Assembly (NCBI RefSeq): GCF_964194155.1
Contig: NC_135901.1
Location: forward strand, 21,762,001-21,826,000
Direction: 5' to 3'
Source: Cetorhinus maximus
Taxonomy: Eukaryota
DNA length: 64,000 bases
Each line of letters starts with the position of its first letter. Within the stretch, counting starts at the first letter, position 1. Below are positions 16,755 to 57,370 of the stretch, one piece after another. A program made the translations under genes and the position numbers. The notes under the pieces are model-generated. The model did no database searches. It saw nothing but the letters and a program-made list of their open reading frames with translations, and was not told the DNA's origin.

Positions 16755-17195
16755 AGATGACCGCGCATGCGCCCTGCTGCTCATTGACCTAGAAAGATGG
16801 CGGCCGTTAACCCGGGCCTGTGACCGGAAGAGGTCGGCAGCTTTGCTCGATTTGGTGCAAACGCGGGTCCGGCAGCTTCTCATTCGGGTCCAGAGACCGA
16901 CACCTAGTGTTTATGAAGCATCCAGTCCATCCTCCGGCACCATTCCTCTCCTCAGTTTCGCTGTTTCTCACCTTTTCATCCCATCCTTCCTCCTTCAGCT
17001 CCCGCAAGCCCCAGACTTCAGTCACAACGACACTGCGCCTGCGCGCAGGGCGCCAGCCGGAAGTATGATCAGGTGGCACCCTTCCTTCATTCCGATTGGT
17101 TGGAGAACCAGCTAGTCCCTCTCGGTCTTCCAGTCCCGCCCCCTCTTCCTATTGGTCCGGAGCTGCCGTCAATCACCCGGGCGTTGTGACGGTTA
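16755..17195 (-). promoter_or_regulatory. CpG-rich promoter/first exon of ZNF gene 14668-15816
   Basis: CGCGCATGCGC (16762), AAGATGGCGGCC YY1-like (16795), TGCGCCTGCGCGCA, CCGGAAGT ETS-like (17057), two ATTGG boxes, CCCGCCCC. Confidence 0.75.
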
Positions 17196-20547: not shown

Positions 20548-20950
20548 TTGTGAAACTAACCACCAGAAGGATTTGTGATTCCCGCCTGAGCTGGAAATTC
20601 TTAGATAAAACTCCACCGTGCAAAGATAATTTGAAAGCTGATTGTGGAAAAGGTTTTCTCAGTCATCCCACTTACTGACGCAACAGCACATTCACATTTG
20701 AGGGAGGAGAATCAGACACATTGTGTGTGCAAAGGCATTCACTCAGTTTGCCCCCTGGTTAACACTCCAACTTTAGAAACTCAACACTTTTGATCTACTA
20801 GTCCATTCTTATTGGCGAGGGATAGTTTAACTCTTATGTCTATGGAAAAAAGCAATCATTTGTTCACCCCACCTGCTGAGACTCCAGTGAGTCCACATCT
20901 AACTGTAGGGGTTTGTTCTGCTGTTAATCACACCCAGGACAGAACTATGG
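20548..20950 (+). pseudogene. Highly decayed ZNF remnant with 3' UTR block
   Basis: DCGKGFSQSSHLLTQQHIH-like segment at 20640-20696; conserved ttctgctgttaatcacacccaggac at 20916. Confidence 0.6.
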
Positions 20951-21389
20951 TGGGGGACCCGTGCTCTTTAGTTGCTGTATCAATTGATTTAGTAAGTTTG
21001 TAACTTGGACAAATGGCTCCAATTGTAATCGGAATTCTGATCGCAAATCACAATGTTCTATTTAAAAATGTCAGATCTCAATGGCGTCGCTCTGACCCAG
21101 CATTCACTGCGGGTAAGACTGTGCCCTATCCACACGACAGGCGCGCCTCGCGCAGGCGTAGTTCCCGACAGAGAGTAGAGCATGCGCAGTGTAGGCTGTC
21201 AGTAGCGCTGCAAGGAACGGGGAAGAAACAATCGAGTGCAGTTGAGTAATGGAGTCGGTGGGTGAGCGGGGAGGATTAGAGCCAGCGGAATGGGCGGGAG
21301 GCTTCATAAATACCACGCGGAAGCTTCAAACCCCGAATAAAAAGTTACCGGTCCCGCATTAGCACCGAAAGGACTATGAGCTGCGGGGT

Positions 21390-21667
21390 TAAAAACAAAA
21401 AGCTAAAAGCTACTGCGGATGCTGGAAATCCAAAACAAAAACAGAATTACCTGGAAAAACTCAGCAGGTCTGGCAGCATCGGTGGAGAAGAAATCAGTTA
21501 ACGTTTCGAGCCTTCACGGCCCTTCGGCAGAACTGAAGCATAGTTAGGAGAAAGGAGACTATGCTTCAGTTCTGCCGAAGGGCCGTGAAGGCTCGAAACG
21601 TTAACTGATTTCTTCTCCACCGATGCTGCCAGACCTGCTGAGTTTTTCCCGGTAATTCTGTTTTTGT
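21390..21667. mobile_element. Miniature palindromic Penelope-like insertion with 15-bp TSD
   Basis: Arms ~21436-21544 and 21558-21667 are near-perfect inverted repeats; TSD tatgagctgcggggt at 21375-21389 and 21668-21682. Confidence 0.92.
21566..21608 (+). ncRNA. Minimal type-I hammerhead-like motif (mirror copy on - strand at ~21494-21536)
   Basis: tcagtt/aactga stem I; CUGCCGA-A core (A6 variant); gggcc/ggctc stem II; GAAAC-GUU with loopless palindromic stem III. Confidence 0.6.
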
Positions 21668-22139
21668 TATGAGCTGCGGGGTGCCTCCCGCTCACAGGCC
21701 CGGTATAGTAGGGCGCATGCGCCGTGATCCTGGATCAAGAGACAGGCAGAGTGGGTTGCCAACCTTCCAGGATTGGACTGGAGTCTCCAGGAGCTGAAGA
21801 TCAATCTGCAGGACACTGCTGTGTGCAGCCCTGGAGAAATATCTTAAGAGCATTAAAAAGATTGTTTTAATTTGTAATTTTCTTTGAACGTTTCTCCTTA
21901 TAAAAATGTTGAAAGTGGGACAAATCATCATCCAATTGCGTCACGAGAAATTTTGCTTTTCAGTTGGCCTGAGAAGGCAGCGTGTCACAAGGAAGGATGT
22001 GTTAGCCGACTAATGGCTGGAGCATGGGGACAAGTCATGTGATGGAACCTCCAGGAATACAATCAATCAGAGTTGGCAAACCTAGAGGAGAGAATATTGT
22101 GAATTTCTGTCCTAGACTGACAGTGATGGTTTCTGTAAA

Positions 22140-22330
22140 CTTACAGGACACTGGAGGATTGATAGACGGGAAACTCAAACCAAACATCACATCAAGATCT
22201 GACAGATTCACTCGATTCATCAGAAACTGAATATCAGCAGCATCTGAATGTGGAAGGTTTGTCTGTTCTGTTTGTGGGAAAAAATTTCAGATATCAATGT
22301 GGCTGGAAAAACATCAAGACACACAAACCC
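22140..22330 (+). pseudogene. ZNF main-exon start truncated by CR1 insertions
   Basis: ttacag acceptor, conserved leader [30 protein letters not shown], first finger VCSVCGKKFQISMWLEKH, then CR1 sequence. Confidence 0.7.
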
Positions 22331-24990
22331 TGGTTAGACCACACCTGGAGAACTGTGTTCAATTCTGGACAAACGTCAGGAAGGATAGAATGGCCTTGGA
22401 GGGAGTGTAACACAGTTTTACCTGAGTGATATCCAAACTCCAAGGGTTAAATTACAGAAGAAGATTACACAAAAGTGTCATTATGGCACAGAGGAGGCCA
22501 TTCAGCCCATTGAGTCCATGCCAGTTTTCTGGAGCAATCCAGTCGTCCCATTCCCCTGCCCCTGCTCTATCCCCGTATCCTTGCAGGTTTATTTCCCTCA
22601 AGTGTCTGTCCAATTTCCTTTTGAGATCATTCATCAGGTCCATTTCCACCTCCCTTCGTAGGCAGTAAACTCCAGGTCATTACCACTCACTGTTTGAAAA
22701 CATTCTTCATCACATCTCCTGTACCTTTTACCCAAAGCCTTAAATATGTGTCCCCGAGTCCTTGTACAATCAGCTGATGGGAACAGCCTTTCTTTGTCCA
22801 CCTTATCTAAACCTGCCAGAAACTTGTGCACCTCAATCAAATCCCACCTCAACCTCCTTTGCAGGAACCATTCTGGTAAACCTCCTCTGCACCTTCTCAA
22901 GGACCTGCACATCCTTCCTAACATCTGGTGACCAGAAGACACTCAAATTGGAAACTTGCCAGAGCTTTGTAAAGATTCAGCATAGCTTCCTGTTTTTGTT
23001 CTCAATATCACTATTTATGTAGCTCAAGATCCAATCAGCTTTGCTAACGTCTCTCTTAATACATCCTGTCACCATCAGAGATCAAAGCACATGAACCCCG
23101 GGTCCCTCTGTCCATGCACACTCTTTAGAACTGAGCCATGAATTATATCTTCCCTCTCCCTATCCCTTATGCCAAAATCCAGCACCTCACTATGAGCGTT
23201 GTAATCCCGGAAACCCGGGAATTTAGAAGATGAAGAGGTGATTTGATCAAAGTTTTTGGGATATTAATTGGAACTGACTGGGTAGATAGAGAGGAACTAT
23301 TTTCACTGGTTGGGGAATCTAGGACGAGCGGGCGGAGGCTAAACATAGAATCAGGTTCCAGCACCTTTTCAGAAAGAGAGTTCCCGATCCTGACAACTCT
23401 CTGTTGGTGCAGAAACTGCTGGACTCGATGCTGAGTCTGGAAGGTTGTAAAGTGACTAATCGAAAGATGAGCTTCTGTTCCTCGAGCTCCCTTTGAGCTT
23501 GATTAGAACAGTTCAGGAGGCCAAGGACACTGAGGTCAGAGTGGGAGTGGGACGGAGAAGTTAAATGATAAATGACCGGACCTCAGGGTCCAGCATGCAC
23601 TTAACATGGTCAAATCCTTGATAAAATCCTGGCAGTATAACATCCAATTTCCTTTTGAAATGATTAATCGTCTCCACTTCCACCACCCTCATGGGCTGAG
23701 TTCCAGGTTATTATTGTAGAAACATGCTCTCAGAGGCTTTTTAGTCAAACAAATTAAGCTTTATTTAGACAAGAGCTTCTGTGGCTGCTTGTATCCAGCC
23801 AGCCCCTCCTACAACCACTTCCAAGGAAACTCCTCCCCTAGAATTTATTCCCCCACGCTAGCTACACATTGGTTGAACAAATCACATGACCCTACTTGCT
23901 GTGAAAAAAGTTCTTCCTCATATCCCCTCTTGCATCTCTTGCCCAAAACATGTATCCTTATACCATCAGCTAATTTAAAAGGATTTCCTTTGTCCACCTT
24001 ATTCTAAACCTTTCATAATCTTGTATACTGCTATCAAATCTCCCCTCAATCTCCCCTGCTCCAAAGAGAACAACCCCAGCTTCTCCAGCCTAACCTTGTA
24101 GCTAAAATCCCTCATCCCTGGAACCATTCTGGTAAATCTCCTCTGCACCTTATCAAGGCCCCTCACATTCTTCCTAAAGACTGGGGACCAGAACTGGATG
24201 CAATATTCTAGATGTGACCTAACCAAAACTCTATAACATAAGAACATAAGAACTAGGAGCAGGAGTAGGCAATTCAGCCCCTCGAGCCTGCCCAGCCATT
24301 CAATACGATCATGACTGATCTCATTTCGGCCTCAACTCCAATTTCCCGCCCTCTCCCCATAACCTTTCAACCCATTACTAATTAAAAATCTATCTCCTCC
24401 TTAAATTCATTCAGTGTCCTGGCATCCACTGCACTCTGGAATAGTGAATTCCACAGATTCACGACCCTTTGAAAAAAGTAATTCCTCCTCATCTCTGATG
24501 TAAATCTAACACCCCTTAGCCTAAAACTATGGCCTCTCGTTCTAGAATGCCCCACAAGGGGAAACATCCGCTCCACGTCTACTTTGTCGATCCCCTTTAG
24601 CATCTTATATACCTCAATTAGATCTCCTCTCATCCTTCTAAATTCTAGCGAGTATAGGCCTAAACTGCTCAATCTCTCCTCATAAGACAAGCCCCGCATC
24701 TCTGGAATCAATCTAGTGAACCTCCTCTGAACCGCCTCCAGTGCAACTAAATCCTTCCTCAAGTAAGGGGACCAAAACTGTGCACAGTACTCCAACTGCG
24801 GTCTCACCAATGCCTTGTACAGTTGCAACAACACTTCCCTATTTTTAATACTCTATTCCTTTTGCAATAAATGCCAAAATTCCATTTGCCTTCCTTATAA
24901 ATGCCAAAATAATGCCCTTGTTTTTATACTCAGTACCTCCATTTATGAAGCCCAAGGCCCCATATGCTTCACTGACTACCCGCTCAATCT
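22330..24990. mobile_element. Nested CR1 copies (mostly -) plus a PLE fragment at 23410-23600; youngest CR1 at 24237-24900 (-)
   Basis: MLLQLYKALVRPQLEYCAQFWSPYLRKD (24382-24834), VRSHLEYCIQFWSP (23999-24247); CR1 tails at 22480 and 24240. Confidence 0.85.
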
Positions 24991-27380: not shown

Positions 27381-28350
27381 GGGATTAGAAGAGAGGATTT
27401 GCAGTCGGGAAACAGAAACAAAACATCACAGCAGAATCTGACAGTCGCCTGATTTATCGTAACCTGAATATCATTTGATTTTGAACAATGAAGGAAAAAG
27501 CACCGTTCACAGTGGAGAGAAACCGTACACGTGTTCTGTGTGTGGACGAGGTTTCAACCGATCATCTAGCCTGTCAAGACACAAGCGCAGCCACATCCGG
27601 GAGAAACCATGGAAATGTGAGGACTGTGGGAAGGGATTCAGATTCCCATCTGAGCTGGAAGGGCATCGGCACATAGGGGAGAGGCCGTTCACTTGCTCAA
27701 ATTGTGGGAAGGGATTTACTCTTTCATCCAACCTGCTGAGCCACCAGCGAGTTCACAGTGAAGAGAGACCTTTTAAATGCCTAGACTGCAGGAAGTGCTT
27801 TAAAAGTTCCTGGGAGCTGATGTCCCATCAACATGTTCACACTGACAAGAGACCATTTAAGTGCTCTCAATGCGGGACTGGGTTCAGGGGATCATCCCAA
27901 CTCACTGTACACCAGCGAATTCACACTGGGGAGAGGCCATTCATCTGTCCCCAGTGTAGGAATGGATTCACTCAGTCATCCCACCTGCTGAGACACCAGC
28001 AAGTTCACACGCGGGAGAGACTGTTCATCTACTCTGAGTGTGGGAAGGGATTCACTGAGTCACACAGCCTGTTAACACACCAGCAAGTTCACACTGGGGA
28101 GAGGCCATTCACCTGCTCCCAGTGTGGGAAGGGATTCACTCAGTTATCTAGCCTGCTGAGACACCAGCAAATTCACACTGGGGAGAGACCATTCACATGC
28201 CCCCAGTGTGGGAAGGCATTTAGTCATTCACCCCACCTGCTGACACACCAACGAATTCACACTGGGGAAAGGCCATTCACCTGCCCCCAGTGTGGGAAGG
28301 GATTCACTACCTCATCCAACCTGCTGAGACACCAGCGAGTTCACAAGTAA
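27381..28350 (+). pseudogene. ZNF gene with ~10 fingers, start codon apparently lost
   Basis: Open frame 27475-28350, but paralogous AAC ATG GAA GGA reads AAC AAT GAA GGA; finger 2 has a deletion (HRH) and one finger lacks a Cys (IYSEC). Confidence 0.7.
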
Positions 28351-47862: not shown

Positions 47863-50090
47863 ATCTACCTCACGGAGGCTGAGCGTCAACTCGCAGACAC
47901 TTCCTCCTACCTCTCCCTGGACCATGACCCCACCACGGAACATCAAGCCATTGTTTCCAGGACTGTCACTGACCCCATCTCCTCTGGAGATCTTCCTTCC
48001 ACAGCTTCCAACCTGATAGTCGCCCAACGTCGGATGGCCCGCTTCTACCTCCTACCCAAAATCCACAAACAGGATTGTCCCGGCAGACCGATCGTGTCAG
48101 CTTGTTCCTGCCCCACGGAACTCATTTCTCGCTATCTTGACTCCCTTCTCTCTCCCCTTGTCCAGTCCCTTCCCACCTACATCCGTGATTCCTCTGACAC
48201 CTTACGTCACGTCAACGATTTCCAGTTGCCTGGCCCCAAACGCCTCCTCTTCACCATGGACGTCCAATCCCTCTACACCTCCATCCCCCACCGGGATGGT
48301 CTGAGGGCTCTCCGCTTATTCCTTGAACAGAGGCCCGAACAATCCCCATCCACCACTACTCTCCTCCATCTAGCTGAACTTGTTCTCACACTGAACAATT
48401 TCTCCTTTAACTCCTCTCACTTCCTCCAAATAAAAGGTGTGGCTATGGGCCCCAGCTATGCCTGTCTCTTTATGGGGTATTTGGAACATTCCTTGTTCCA
48501 GTCCTACTCCGGCCCCCTTCCACAACTCATTCTCTGGCACATCGATGATTACTTCAGTGCTGCTTCATGCTCTCGTCGGGACCTGGAAAAATTTATTAAC
48601 TTCACTTCCAATCTCCACCCCACCATCATTTTCACATGGTTCATCTCTGACACTTCCCTTCCCTTCCTTGACCTCTCTGCCTCAATTTCTGGTGATAGAC
48701 TGTTCACCAATATCCATTACAAGCCTACCGACTCGCACAGCTACCTCGACTACAGCTCCTCACACCCCGCTTCCTGAAAGGACTCCATCCCATTCTCTCA
48801 GTTCCATCGCCTCCATCGCATCTGTTCTGATGATGCCACTTTCAAAAACAGTTCCTCTGACATGTCCTCCTTCTTCCTTAACCGAGGTTTTCCACCCACG
48901 GTAGTTGACAGGGCCCTCAACCGTGACCAGCTCATCTCCCGCGCATCCGCCCTCATGCCTTCTCCTCCCTCCCAGAAACATGATAGGGTCTCCCTTGTCC
49001 TCACTTATCACCCCACCAGCCTCCACATTCAAAGGATCATCCTCCGCCATTTCCACCAACTCCAGCATGATGCCACCACCAAACACATCTTCCCTTCACC
49101 CCCCCGGCGGCATTCCGTGGGGATCGTTCCCTCCGTGACACCCTGATCCACTCCTCCATCACCCCCTACTCCTCAACCCCCTCCCACGGCACCTTCCCAT
49201 GTGACCGCAGAAGATGCAACACCTGCTCCTTCACTTCCTCTCTCCTCACCATCCAAGGGCCCAAACACTCCTTTCAAGTGAAGCAGCATTTCACTTGCAC
49301 TTCCCTCAACCTAGTCTACTGCATTCATTGCTCCCAATGCGGCTTCCTCTACACTGGAGAGACCAAACGCAGACTGGGTGACCGCTTTGCAGAACACCTT
49401 CGGTCTGTCCGTAAGCATTACCCAGACCTCCCTGTCTCTTGCCATTTCAACACTCCACCCTTCTCTCATGCCCACATGTCTGTCCTTGGCTTGCTCCATT
49501 GCTCCAGTGAAGCTCAACGTAAACTGGAGGAACAGCACCTCATCTTCCAACTAGGCACTTTACAGCCTTCCGGACTGAATATTGAGTTCAACAATTTTAT
49601 ATCTTGAACGCTTTCCTCCATCCCCACCCCCTTTCCGTTTCTTCCTCCTCCTTTTTGTTTTTTCCAATAACTTATATAGATTTTTCTTTTCCCACCTATT
49701 TCCATTATTTTTAAATGTATTTCTACCCATTGTTTATCTCTACCTTTTAGCACTTTTAGTATTCCCCCACCCTCACTACAGCTCTCTGTACCTTATCTGT
49801 CCTGCGTTCCACTCTTAATTAGCACATTCCTTTAGATAATATCACCACCTTCAACACCTCTTTGTCCTTTTGTCCGTGACTTCTTTTGGTTATCTCCACC
49901 CATTACTGGCTACTTGTCCCAACAGCGCCCCCCCCCCCCACCCCTTAAACAAGCTTATATTTCACCCCTTTCCTATTTTTACTTAGTTCTGTTGAAGGGT
50001 CATGAGGACTCGAAACGTCAACTGGGCTCTTCTCCGCCGATGCTGCCAGACCTGCTGAGTTTTTCCAGGTATTTCTGTTTCTGTTTTTTT
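47863..50090 (+). mobile_element. Penelope-like retroelement (Neptune-type), 5'-truncated: RT, Zn-knuckle, GIY-YIG, pLTR with hammerhead
   Basis: FYLLPKIHK..PGRPIVS, TMDVQSLYTSIP, GVAMG, HIDD; CDRRRCNTC linker (~49200); NLVYCIHCSQCGFLYTGETKRRLGDRFAEH; a few stops and indels. Confidence 0.93.
49984..50024 (+). ncRNA. Minimal hammerhead-like motif in PLE 3' region
   Basis: tagtt-CTGTTGA-A-gggtc atgag gactc-GAAAC-GTC-aactg; GUC cleavage triplet, non-canonical position 6. Confidence 0.6.
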
Positions 50091-50425: not shown

Positions 50426-50455
50426 CCTGTTGTGTGCATAGGGGACATTCTCTAC

Positions 50456-51725
50456 AAAACAAAAACAGAATTACCTGGAAAAACTCAGCAAGTCTGGCAG
50501 CATCGGCGGAGAAGAAATCAGTCAACGTTTCGAGCCTTCATGGCCCTTCGGCAGAACTGCAGCATAGTTTCAACAAGGGAGAAATATAAATTGGTTTAAG
50601 GTGGGTGGGGGGTGGGGGTGGGGGGGAAAGAGACACATTGAGGGTGTGGTGTGAGCAGATAATAATCAAAAGATGTCACAGACAAAAGGGTCAAAGAGGT
50701 GTTGAAGGTGGTGGTCTTTGTCTGAGAAAAGTGCTAATTAAGAATGGAAAACAGGATATTCAAAGTACAGCTCTAGTGGGGGTGGGGTGGAAAGACTAAA
50801 GGTTTTAGTTTTAGATTTAAAAATAATGGAAATAGGTGGGGAAAGAAGAATCTATATAAATTATTGAAAAAAAAGGCGGGTGGGGGGGGAAAAGAAACGG
50901 GGTGGGGATGGGGGGAGGGGGAGTTTAAGATCTAAAGTTGTTGAATTCAATATTCAGCCCAGAGGGCTGTAAAGTGCCTAGTCGGAAGATGAGGTGCTGT
51001 TCCTCCAGTTTGCGTTGGGCTTCACTGGAACAATGCAGCAAGCCAAGGACAGACACGTTGGCAAGAGAACAGGGTGGAGTGTTAAAATGGCAAGCGACAG
51101 GGAGTGAAGCCCAACGCACACTGGAGGAACAGCACCTCATCTTCCGACTAGGCACTTTACAGCCCTCTGGGCTGAATATTGAATTCAACAACTTTAGATC
51201 TTAAACTCCCCCTCCCCCCATCCCCACCCCGTTTCTTTTCCCCCCCCACCCGCCTTTTTTTTCAATAATTTATATAGATTCTTCTTTCCCCACCTATTTC
51301 CATTATTTTTAAATCTAAAACTAAAACCTTTAGTCTTTCCACCCCACCCCCACTAGAGCTGTACTTTGAATATCCTGTTTTCCATTCTTAATTAGCACTT
51401 TTCTCAGACAAAGACCACCACCTTCAACACCTCTTTGACCCTTTTGTCTGTGACATCTTTTGATTATTATCTGCTCACACCACACCCTCAATGTGTCTCT
51501 TTCCCCCCCACCCCCACCCCCCACCCACCTTAAACCAATTTATATTTCTCCCTTGTTGAAACTATGCTGCAGTTCTGCCGAAGGGCCATGAAGGCTCGAA
51601 ACGTTGACTGATTTCTTCTCCGCCGATGCTGCCAGACTTGCTGAGTTTTTCCAGGTAATTCTGTTTTTGTTTTGTTTTGGATTTCCAGCATCCGCAGTAG
51701 CTTTTAGCTTTTTGTTTTTATCTTT
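50456..51725. mobile_element. Large palindromic Penelope-like insertion with 15-bp TSD
   Basis: Arms 50456-51026 and 51103-51673 are inverted and near-identical around a 76-bp spacer; TSD ggggaYattctctac at 50441-50455 and 51726-51740; GIY-YIG C-terminal coding sequence in both arms. Confidence 0.95.
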
Positions 51726-56939: not shown

Positions 56940-57370
56940 TCAATGGCGAGGCTCTTACCCAGCATTCGCGACAAAAGAGAACGTGCCCCAAACTCAATGC
57001 AGGAGCCACTTGCGCAGGCGCAGTGGCGAGTTGTGGAGTAAGCATGCACATTGCCGTCTCACACAGGAGCATGCGCAGCGCGGTTCTAAAGGCGCGTGCG
57101 CATATTTGGTGCTGGCTTTTCAGTGAGGCGGTCAACTTGACGCCGCAGCCTCTAAGAAATGGCCGATTGTAGGAGGACAGTAAAGTTGGTGGACCGGGTC
57201 GGGAGGCTTCATAAACACGCAGTGGAGACCTCAAAATCCGAATAAGAAACTCTGTGTCCTGCGTTGCCATGAAACGGAGCTGCAGCTGAGGGACTTAACC
57301 TGACGACAGACGGAGATTAACGGCCGGCATCTTTATATGGTCATGTGCAGCGGTGCGCATGCGCGGTCAT
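56940..57370 (+). promoter_or_regulatory. CpG promoter/first exon of ZNF pseudogene 58624-59255
   Basis: TGCGCAGGCGCA, GAGCATGCGCAG, GCGCGTGCGCA, TGCGCATGCGCG (57354). Confidence 0.7.

What the first reader, a model, noticed from the sequence alone, without database searches (positions are those of the whole stretch)
21375..21682. Minimal 278-bp non-coding hammerhead palindrome inside a ZNF first exon
Seen: ~109-bp inverted arms, 13-nt loop, exact 15-bp TSD, and the same asymmetry as the 50456 element (tail on one arm only, short arm ending at the same ..gtaattctgtttttgt point). It contains no coding sequence, only ribozyme plus terminus. Comparison with paralogous promoters (16810-16900 on -, 57215-57300) places it ~20 nt upstream of the putative first donor (cacaggcccg|gtatag). 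Inference: it would be transcribed as an exonic hairpin from a host promoter. It is either an extreme 5'-truncation/inversion product or a MITE-like non-autonomous PLE derivative. The downstream gene (22140-) is dead, so the promoter may now drive only a hairpin RNA.
Basis: partly seen in the sequence, partly recalled or inferred. Interest (0 to 1): 0.7.

Follow-up and report, generated by a model that had tools for sequence, protein, structure and literature searches.

The report
Ordinary Penelope mirror-image insertion stub
This hairpin is one of more than a thousand similar mirror-image stubs left by a known kind of jumping gene (a Penelope-like retrotransposon), each with its own centre, so it is ordinary; together the stubs suggest that the element likely copies one RNA from both cut ends of the target DNA.

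Summary
In detail: 278-bp insert, 110-bp arms, 13-nt loop, 15-bp target duplication, tail on one arm. It is the 3' tip of a young, coding Penelope-like family, present twice head to head. This is the textbook layout of these elements.

It is not a MITE-like family. Its junction occurs once in 4 Gb, and 95 of 100 sampled small palindromes have different centres. It is not minimal: 1,061 of 1,293 counted palindromes fall in smaller centre-size bins. The hammerhead has an A6C core and is fully paired in the predicted hairpin.

In a relative, RNA-like contigs start near 21200 and cross the empty site, so a 5'-UTR position is plausible. They read unspliced through the proposed donor.

The useful by-product is population data: the tail is on exactly one arm in 113 of 115, either arm can be longer, both arms share subfamily alleles, and inner ends pile up at a TATA/Inr-like site. 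This favours priming from both target strands on one RNA. The scan noted this layout and the pile-up before on other DNA of this genome; the genome-wide counts are added here.

The parts
21375..21389 (+). Left copy of the 15-bp target-site duplication
   Evidence: exact
21390..21434 (-). 45-nt 'tail' of the Penelope-like 3' end, on this arm only; inferred to be the stretch between the two reverse-transcription start sites
   Evidence: two-start-site model from PMC11167929
21435..21544 (-). Left arm: element 3' end in antisense (cDNA positions 46-155)
   Evidence: 100% identical to many genomic copies
21545..21557 (-). 13-nt loop = further element sequence of the longer (tail) arm, which reaches cDNA position 169; 1-nt overlap at the join
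21558..21667 (+). Right arm: element 3' end in sense, cDNA positions 155 to 46, ending at the tail-less start site
21567..21607 (+). Minimal type-I hammerhead motif with A6C core (CUGCCGA), 5-bp stem II, GAAA, self-complementary ACGU stem III, GUU triplet; mirror copy at 21495-21535 on the minus strand
   Evidence: predicted fully paired in the hairpin; no hammerhead hit in Rfam
21668..21682 (+). Right copy of the target-site duplication
21001..21800 (.). CpG island with ZNF-type promoter motifs; RNA-like contigs of a relative begin at 21198-21201
21703..21708 (+). Proposed first splice donor; GT is seen at the like place in some paralogues, but contigs of a relative cross it unspliced
22126..22400 (+). 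ZNF exon remnant: in-frame stop before one degenerate finger, no finger array
50455..51720 (.). Larger palindrome (1,266 bp) of a sister subfamily, same anatomy, at another CpG-island promoter

Best explanation
It is a one-off, non-coding insertion of the 3' tip of a young Penelope-like retrotransposon, present twice head to head, and was likely made when both cut strands of the target primed reverse transcription on the same element RNA. Shown: the parent family encodes RT plus a C-terminal GIY-YIG nuclease; such palindromes range from about 250 bp to 3.7 kb, each with its own centre and target duplication; the tail is on one arm only; either arm can be longer; both arms carry the same subfamily alleles. 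Inferred steps: (1) the nuclease cuts the two strands 15 nt apart; (2) one 3' end primes at the outer start site (tail) and the other at the inner site about 45 nt in; (3) both cDNAs stop early, here at 169 and 155 nt; (4) their ends are joined bluntly or through a short match (1 nt here) and gaps are filled. The stub lacks the element's ORF and its TATA-like motif, so it is predicted to be dead on arrival. If the host promoter is active it would put a 110-bp hairpin in the 5' part of the transcript, in which the ribozyme is predicted to be locked; that is a likely side effect, not a function.
For: Junction unique in G000 (1 match). 95 of 100 position-ordered small palindromes have distinct centres; a target duplication of 8-16 nt was found in 91 of 100, 12-15 nt in 65. 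Parent ORF in L039: RVT_1 E = 7e-7, GIY-YIG E = 4e-4. Tail on exactly one arm in 113 of 115 loci chosen only on their centre; tail arm longer in 29, tail-less arm longer in 46, within 2 nt in 38 of 113. Arms discordant at non-CpG diagnostic sites in 0 of 103, 1 of 91, 0 of 90 and 0 of 75 pairs, against 20-46 expected if independent. Overlaps of 3 nt or more in 20 of 69 junctions without inserted bases, against about 6% by chance. Literature: an inverted 5'-truncated copy and a one-sided 30-40 bp tail are typical of these elements (PMC8557442; PMC3846280); an anole element cuts and extends both strands in vitro from two start sites that bound the tail (PMC11167929).
Against: Shared alleles show the same source copy, not the same RNA molecule; one dominant source at a time, or conversion between arms, would look alike. 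A mixed model (one cDNA folds back, the other anneals to the copy) is not excluded. Both Pfam scores lie just under the curated cut-offs. 2 of 115 loci have two tails. Not every copy is a palindrome: 5 of 18 copies picked on the tail arm showed no inverted partner within the roughly 6 kb fetched. The focal site is unusual in being a CpG island (0 of 50 other palindromes), although the anole enzyme prefers AT-rich DNA.
Confidence: 0.85

Rival explanations
1. Same origin (one-off Penelope insertion) but made by fold-back: a single cDNA, or an antisense RNA, primes on itself and copies itself, as proposed in PMC3846280.
For: Arms share alleles and their inner ends are usually close (within 10 nt in 82 of 115). 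Centres recur at self-complementary motifs. Self-priming was proposed for such head-to-head repeats.
Against: Fold-back of the tail-bearing cDNA requires that arm to be the longer one, yet the tail-less arm is longer in 46 of 113. Fold-back of the tail-less cDNA cannot supply the tail without a second priming. Many centres are perfect palindromes with no loop, which fits pairing of two ends better than a hairpin.
Confidence: 0.2
2. A MITE-like non-autonomous element that replicates as a palindromic unit.
For: Over 1,200 small palindromes with like outer ends exist; some centres recur, for example four loci with one 52-nt centre.
Against: This junction occurs once; 95 of 100 centres are distinct; recurring centres sit on self-complementary motifs and recur in different subfamilies, and the four loci sharing a centre do not all share arm alleles; sizes run on to 3.7 kb.
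Confidence: 0.03
3. An exapted hairpin RNA: the promoter now makes a long double-stranded stem that yields small RNAs against the Penelope family or regulates the ZNF gene.
For: The site is a CpG island that is likely transcribed in a relative; the hairpin is very stable; the nearest downstream ZNF exon is degenerate.
Against: The insertion is young (one arm mismatch; 100% identical to many copies) and appears absent in the relative, so there is no sign of selection. The promoter may serve the 8-finger exon at 27381. With 14,617 core copies many will fall in transcripts by chance.
Confidence: 0.05

Closest known systems
Insertion units of endonuclease-positive Penelope-like elements (inverted 5'-truncated copy plus one-sided tail; PMC8557442, PMC3846280, PMC2377424)
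   Same: Head-to-head inverted terminal copy, tail at one end, target duplication, hammerhead in the terminal repeat, parent with RT and C-terminal GIY-YIG.
   Different: Tail is 45 nt rather than 30-40; duplication 12-15 nt rather than the 8-10 nt of the rotifer examples; both halves are so short that only the terminus remains. Clade (Poseidon, Neptune) not tested.
PAc, Poseidon element of Anolis carolinensis (PMC11167929)
   Same: Two fixed ends that bound the tail; element RNA continues beyond the tail in tandem copies, as expected for internal initiation.
   Different: That work is in vitro and, in the passages searched, does not link the two sites to inverted genomic copies; here the link is inferred from genomic copies only.
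Minimal type-I hammerheads of metazoan PLEs (PMC4209133) and the natural A6C hammerhead variant (PMC7151607)
   Same: Minimal stem III with self-complementary ACGU; stem II keeps a compensatory pair (C-G 83, U-A 33 of 119). Pairs of such motifs on opposite strands 100-700 bp apart were already noted in Schistosoma.
   Different: Core is CUGCCGA, which in two other hammerheads strongly lowered cleavage in Mg2+; here the motif is also predicted to be locked in the hairpin.
LINE-1 twin priming (recalled, no call)
   Same: Both target ends prime on one RNA and give an inversion with short junction matches.
   Different: In LINE-1 the two cDNAs copy different parts of the RNA; here they copy the same part, so the product is a palindrome.
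Non-LTR retrozymes (bioRxiv 10.64898/2026.07.22.740005, first of five parts read)
   Same: Non-coding, hammerhead-bearing, derived from PLE termini.
   Different: Retrozymes are head-to-tail tandem units; this is a single head-to-head pair.

Membership tests
EN+ Penelope-like element insertion | Parent ORF with RT and C-terminal GIY-YIG endonuclease | tested here: met
   L039, 673 aa: RVT_1 at 162-326, GIY-YIG at 576-611, both just under curated cut-offs; the insert's bases 1-169 match its end at 100%
EN+ Penelope-like element insertion | Inverted 5'-truncated copy with tail at one end | tested here: met
   113 of 115
EN+ Penelope-like element insertion | Target-site duplication of variable length | tested here: met
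   15 bp here; 8-16 nt in 91 of 100
EN+ Penelope-like element insertion | Hammerhead motif in the terminal repeat | tested here: met
   motif at 21567-21607 by pattern; variant core
EN+ Penelope-like element insertion | Placement in a named clade (Penelope/Poseidon, Neptune, Nematis) | not tested
   no tree built
MITE-like non-autonomous family | Many copies of one internal structure and uniform size | tested here: not met
   junction unique; 95 of 100 distinct; 250 bp to 3.7 kb
Non-LTR retrozyme | Head-to-tail tandem units each with a complete hammerhead | tested here: not met
   single head-to-head pair
Active minimal hammerhead | Canonical core CUGANGA | tested here: not met
   CUGCCGA here and in 115 of 119 copies counted, part of them selected on this core
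Active minimal hammerhead | Free to fold, with a second sense copy for dimer formation | tested here: not met
   one sense copy per strand; predicted pairing with the antisense arm 1.0
Active minimal hammerhead | Self-cleavage | not testable with these tools
   needs an in vitro assay
First exon of a ZNF gene | Site lies downstream of the transcription start | tested here: inconclusive
   contigs guessed to be RNA, from a relative and two studies, begin at 21198 and 21201 while a DNA run goes on; contigs cannot fix a start or strand
First exon of a ZNF gene | Donor at 21702/3 is spliced | tested here: not met
   X15 and X16 contigs run unbroken across it; relative only, and rare spliced forms may be dropped

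The most novel reading that the evidence does not exclude
The palindromes are a genomic record of how Penelope-like elements integrate: one RNA is primed from both target strands at two fixed sites, one each, and the two cDNAs are joined head to head. About a thousand mini-palindromes whose longer arm ends 143-151 nt from the tail are run-off products from the 5' end of the element's own transcript, marking its start at an Inr-like TCAGTT about 25-30 nt downstream of a TATA-like motif, at the 5' edge of the hammerhead. The focal element would be an early-terminated product of the same reaction on the 3' terminal repeat.
Probability: 0.45. Interest if true: 0.55.

Novelty: new member of a known kind. 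Interest (0 to 1): 0.27.

Why it matters
The element itself matters little: it is one dead stub among more than a thousand. The population matters more. Reviews call the origin of tandem and inverted Penelope structures undefined (PMC8557442). The one-tail rule, the free choice of longer arm, the shared alleles and the pile-up of ends give concrete predictions for the existing in vitro system (PMC11167929) and a predicted transcription start for this family. Searches for 'Penelope' with 'twin priming' and 'inverted', with 'head-to-head', 'pLTR', 'self-priming' and with 'strong-stop' listed no paper whose title or opening abstract lines state this model; only PMC3846280 (self-priming) addresses it. 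Subscription papers and supplements were not seen.

Tried and rejected
Rfam scan: no hammerhead family hit; the mir-3127 match (41 bits, gathering 82) reflects only the hairpin. MITE family: rejected. Simple fold-back of the tail arm: rejected as the sole route. Splicing as the cause of the pile-up: the sense strand has a branch-point/AG-like site there and a donor-like site 83 nt downstream, but the joined form occurs once in the genome and a 3-nt match explains it equally. A cap-templated extra base at the run-off point: ends spread over 143-147, not resolvable. Expression in this species: no RNA holder listed; the one small RNA-guess run of the same organism label (X20) does not cover the site; this is no evidence either way. 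The empty-site joint is not among the joints shown (1,450 hidden); bridging is inferred from contig 22 of X16 adding depth at both 21318 and 21706. First estimate of inner ends was capped at 149 and missed one subfamily, so it was redone. The paper on PLE hammerhead variants that cleave as dimers (PMC5785218) was not held. Papers seen: PMC8557442, PMC3846280, PMC2377424, PMC6765202 as search passages; PMC11167929 parts 1-2 of 4 plus passages; PMC4209133 parts 1-2 of 4; PMC7151607 abstract and Results; the 2026 preprint part 1 of 5; PMC3088659 listing only. No supplements were read.

Full report
Observation. The sequence is as described. An exact 15-bp duplication (21375-21389, 21668-21682) flanks a 278-bp insert with 110-bp arms (one mismatch), a 13-nt loop and a 45-nt tail on the left arm only. 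The transcript would fold at -241 kcal/mol, z = -24.6. I number the element from the tail end (cDNA position 1 = 21390). The left arm runs from 1 to 169, the right arm from 155 back to 46, with a 1-nt overlap. The loop is simply element sequence of the longer arm: positions 1-169 match other genomic copies at 100%.

Parent. [quoted passage not shown] A 16-nt word covering the ribozyme core occurs 14,617 times in the 4.0-Gb genome. In tandem copies the element continues past the tail, so the tail end is internal to the RNA, as for the anole element (PMC11167929). An inverted 5'-truncated copy and a one-sided tail are the typical anatomy of these elements (PMC8557442; PMC3846280). That the host is a shark or ray is my recall and the wording of earlier notes; I did not test it.

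Family or one-off. The loop junction occurs once. Among 100 small palindromes taken in chromosome order from three size bins, 95 centres are distinct and 91 have their own duplication of 8-16 nt. Palindromes of the same family run from about 250 bp to 3.7 kb. Centres that recur lie on self-complementary motifs and recur in different subfamilies. These are repeated one-off products.

Not minimal. With one pair of anchors, palindromes with centre spacers of 0-30, 31-60, 61-90, 91-120 and 121-150 nt number 99, 568, 394, 126 and 106. These are exact-match lower bounds and a few loci fall in two bins. The focal element has a spacer of 97 and lies in the fourth bin. 962 of 1,293 lie in the second and third bins. 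In 115 fetched loci from the first four bins (20, 40, 40 and 15), the longer arm ends at 141-149 in 53; weighted by bin size about 54% end at 143-151, and shorter arms trail below. On the sense strand this point is an Inr-like TCAGTT about 25-30 nt downstream of a TATA-like TTATATTT (motif names recalled) and is the 5' edge of hammerhead stem I. I infer run-off at the RNA's 5' end. Earlier notes of the scan had flagged this boundary on other DNA without genome-wide counts. The focal element passes this point by 10-25 nt, so it came from a longer template and stopped early.

How the palindrome forms. In the 115 loci, chosen only on their centres, the tail is on exactly one arm in 113, on both in 2, on neither in 0. 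The other arm ends at 38-50 in 81 of 100. The tail arm is longer in 29, the tail-less arm in 46, and they are within 2 nt in 38. At four non-CpG diagnostic sites the arms disagree in 0 of 103, 1 of 91, 0 of 90 and 0 of 75 pairs, against 20-46 expected for independent templates; at two CpG sites in 4 of 112 and 3 of 82. Overlaps of 3 nt or more occur in 20 of the 69 junctions without inserted bases, against about 6% by chance; the other 46 have extra bases. The simplest reading is that both cut strands prime on one RNA, one at each start site, and the two cDNA ends are joined. This fits the in vitro finding that the anole enzyme extends both strands from two sites and is predicted to be a dimer. 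It is an inference. Shared alleles prove a shared source, not a shared molecule, and a mixed fold-back model stays open.

Ribozyme. The motif at 21567-21607 has core CUGCCGA (A6C) and a self-complementary stem III. Stem II keeps a compensatory pair across subfamilies (C-G 83, U-A 33 of 119), so the fold mattered to the parent. Such minimal motifs cleaved weakly and only as dimers or with an extended stem III (PMC4209133), and A6C strongly lowered cleavage in Mg2+ in two other hammerheads (PMC7151607). In a host transcript the antisense arm is made first and is predicted to pair with the whole motif (probability 1.0). The ribozyme is cargo here.

Host context. The site lies in a CpG island (21001-21800) similar to other ZNF promoters of the window; 0 of 50 other palindromes had such flanks. 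Contigs of two runs guessed to be RNA, from a related organism and two studies, begin at 21198 and 21201, do not cover 20616-20846 or 21001-21154 where a DNA run does, and one appears to bridge the empty site. This is a weak hint that the start lies upstream of the insertion. The same contigs run unbroken through the proposed donor to 21824 and 22022, so the 'first exon' boundary is not supported. The 22126-22400 remnant has a stop and one degenerate finger. But the 8-finger exon at 27381-28350 has no CpG island closer than this one, so the promoter may not be orphaned; that frame lacks the start codon seen in paralogues. Expression in this species could not be tested.

Verdict. A real but ordinary Penelope-like insertion stub; new member of a known kind; interest 0.27. 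The credit is for the population pattern, which makes an open point of Penelope integration directly testable.

Noticed in passing
G000 genome-wide: Inner ends of small palindromes pile up 143-151 nt from the tail, at an Inr-like TCAGTT downstream of a TATA-like motif; likely the element's transcription start.
   Followed up: partly
window 50455-51720 and 49985-50087: The larger young palindrome also sits at a CpG-island promoter, with an older copy (core CUGUUGA) nearby. Both young palindromes of this window hit promoters, whereas 0 of 50 others had CpG-island flanks.
   Followed up: partly
L232 (G000:C21:31215770): A palindromic insertion in which an 83-nt hammerhead unit is repeated head to tail exactly between an acceptor-like and a donor-like site; one case genome-wide. 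It could be a back-splice relic or a 3-nt microhomology duplication.
   Followed up: partly
window 27381-28350: 8-finger ZNF exon with a typical acceptor but no CpG island of its own and no in-frame start codon where paralogues have one; may belong to the 21.2-kb promoter.
   Followed up: partly
window 22248-22260: One contig of a relative's DNA run has 8 more bases after 22253, so the remnant's single finger may be in frame with an ATG there and out of frame here.
   Followed up: no
L032 (G000:C8:20347356-20348003), L051: Short head-to-tail tandems (period 257) made of the terminus plus the element's 5' start; retrozyme-like in layout.
   Followed up: no
L043: Long palindrome with an extra inverted piece (positions 1133-1203) at the centre, suggesting both cDNAs reached a similar length before part of one arm was lost.
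   Followed up: no
window, 13 copies at 868-51720: The ZNF cluster holds many older Penelope termini of 72-89% identity besides the two young palindromes.
   Followed up: no
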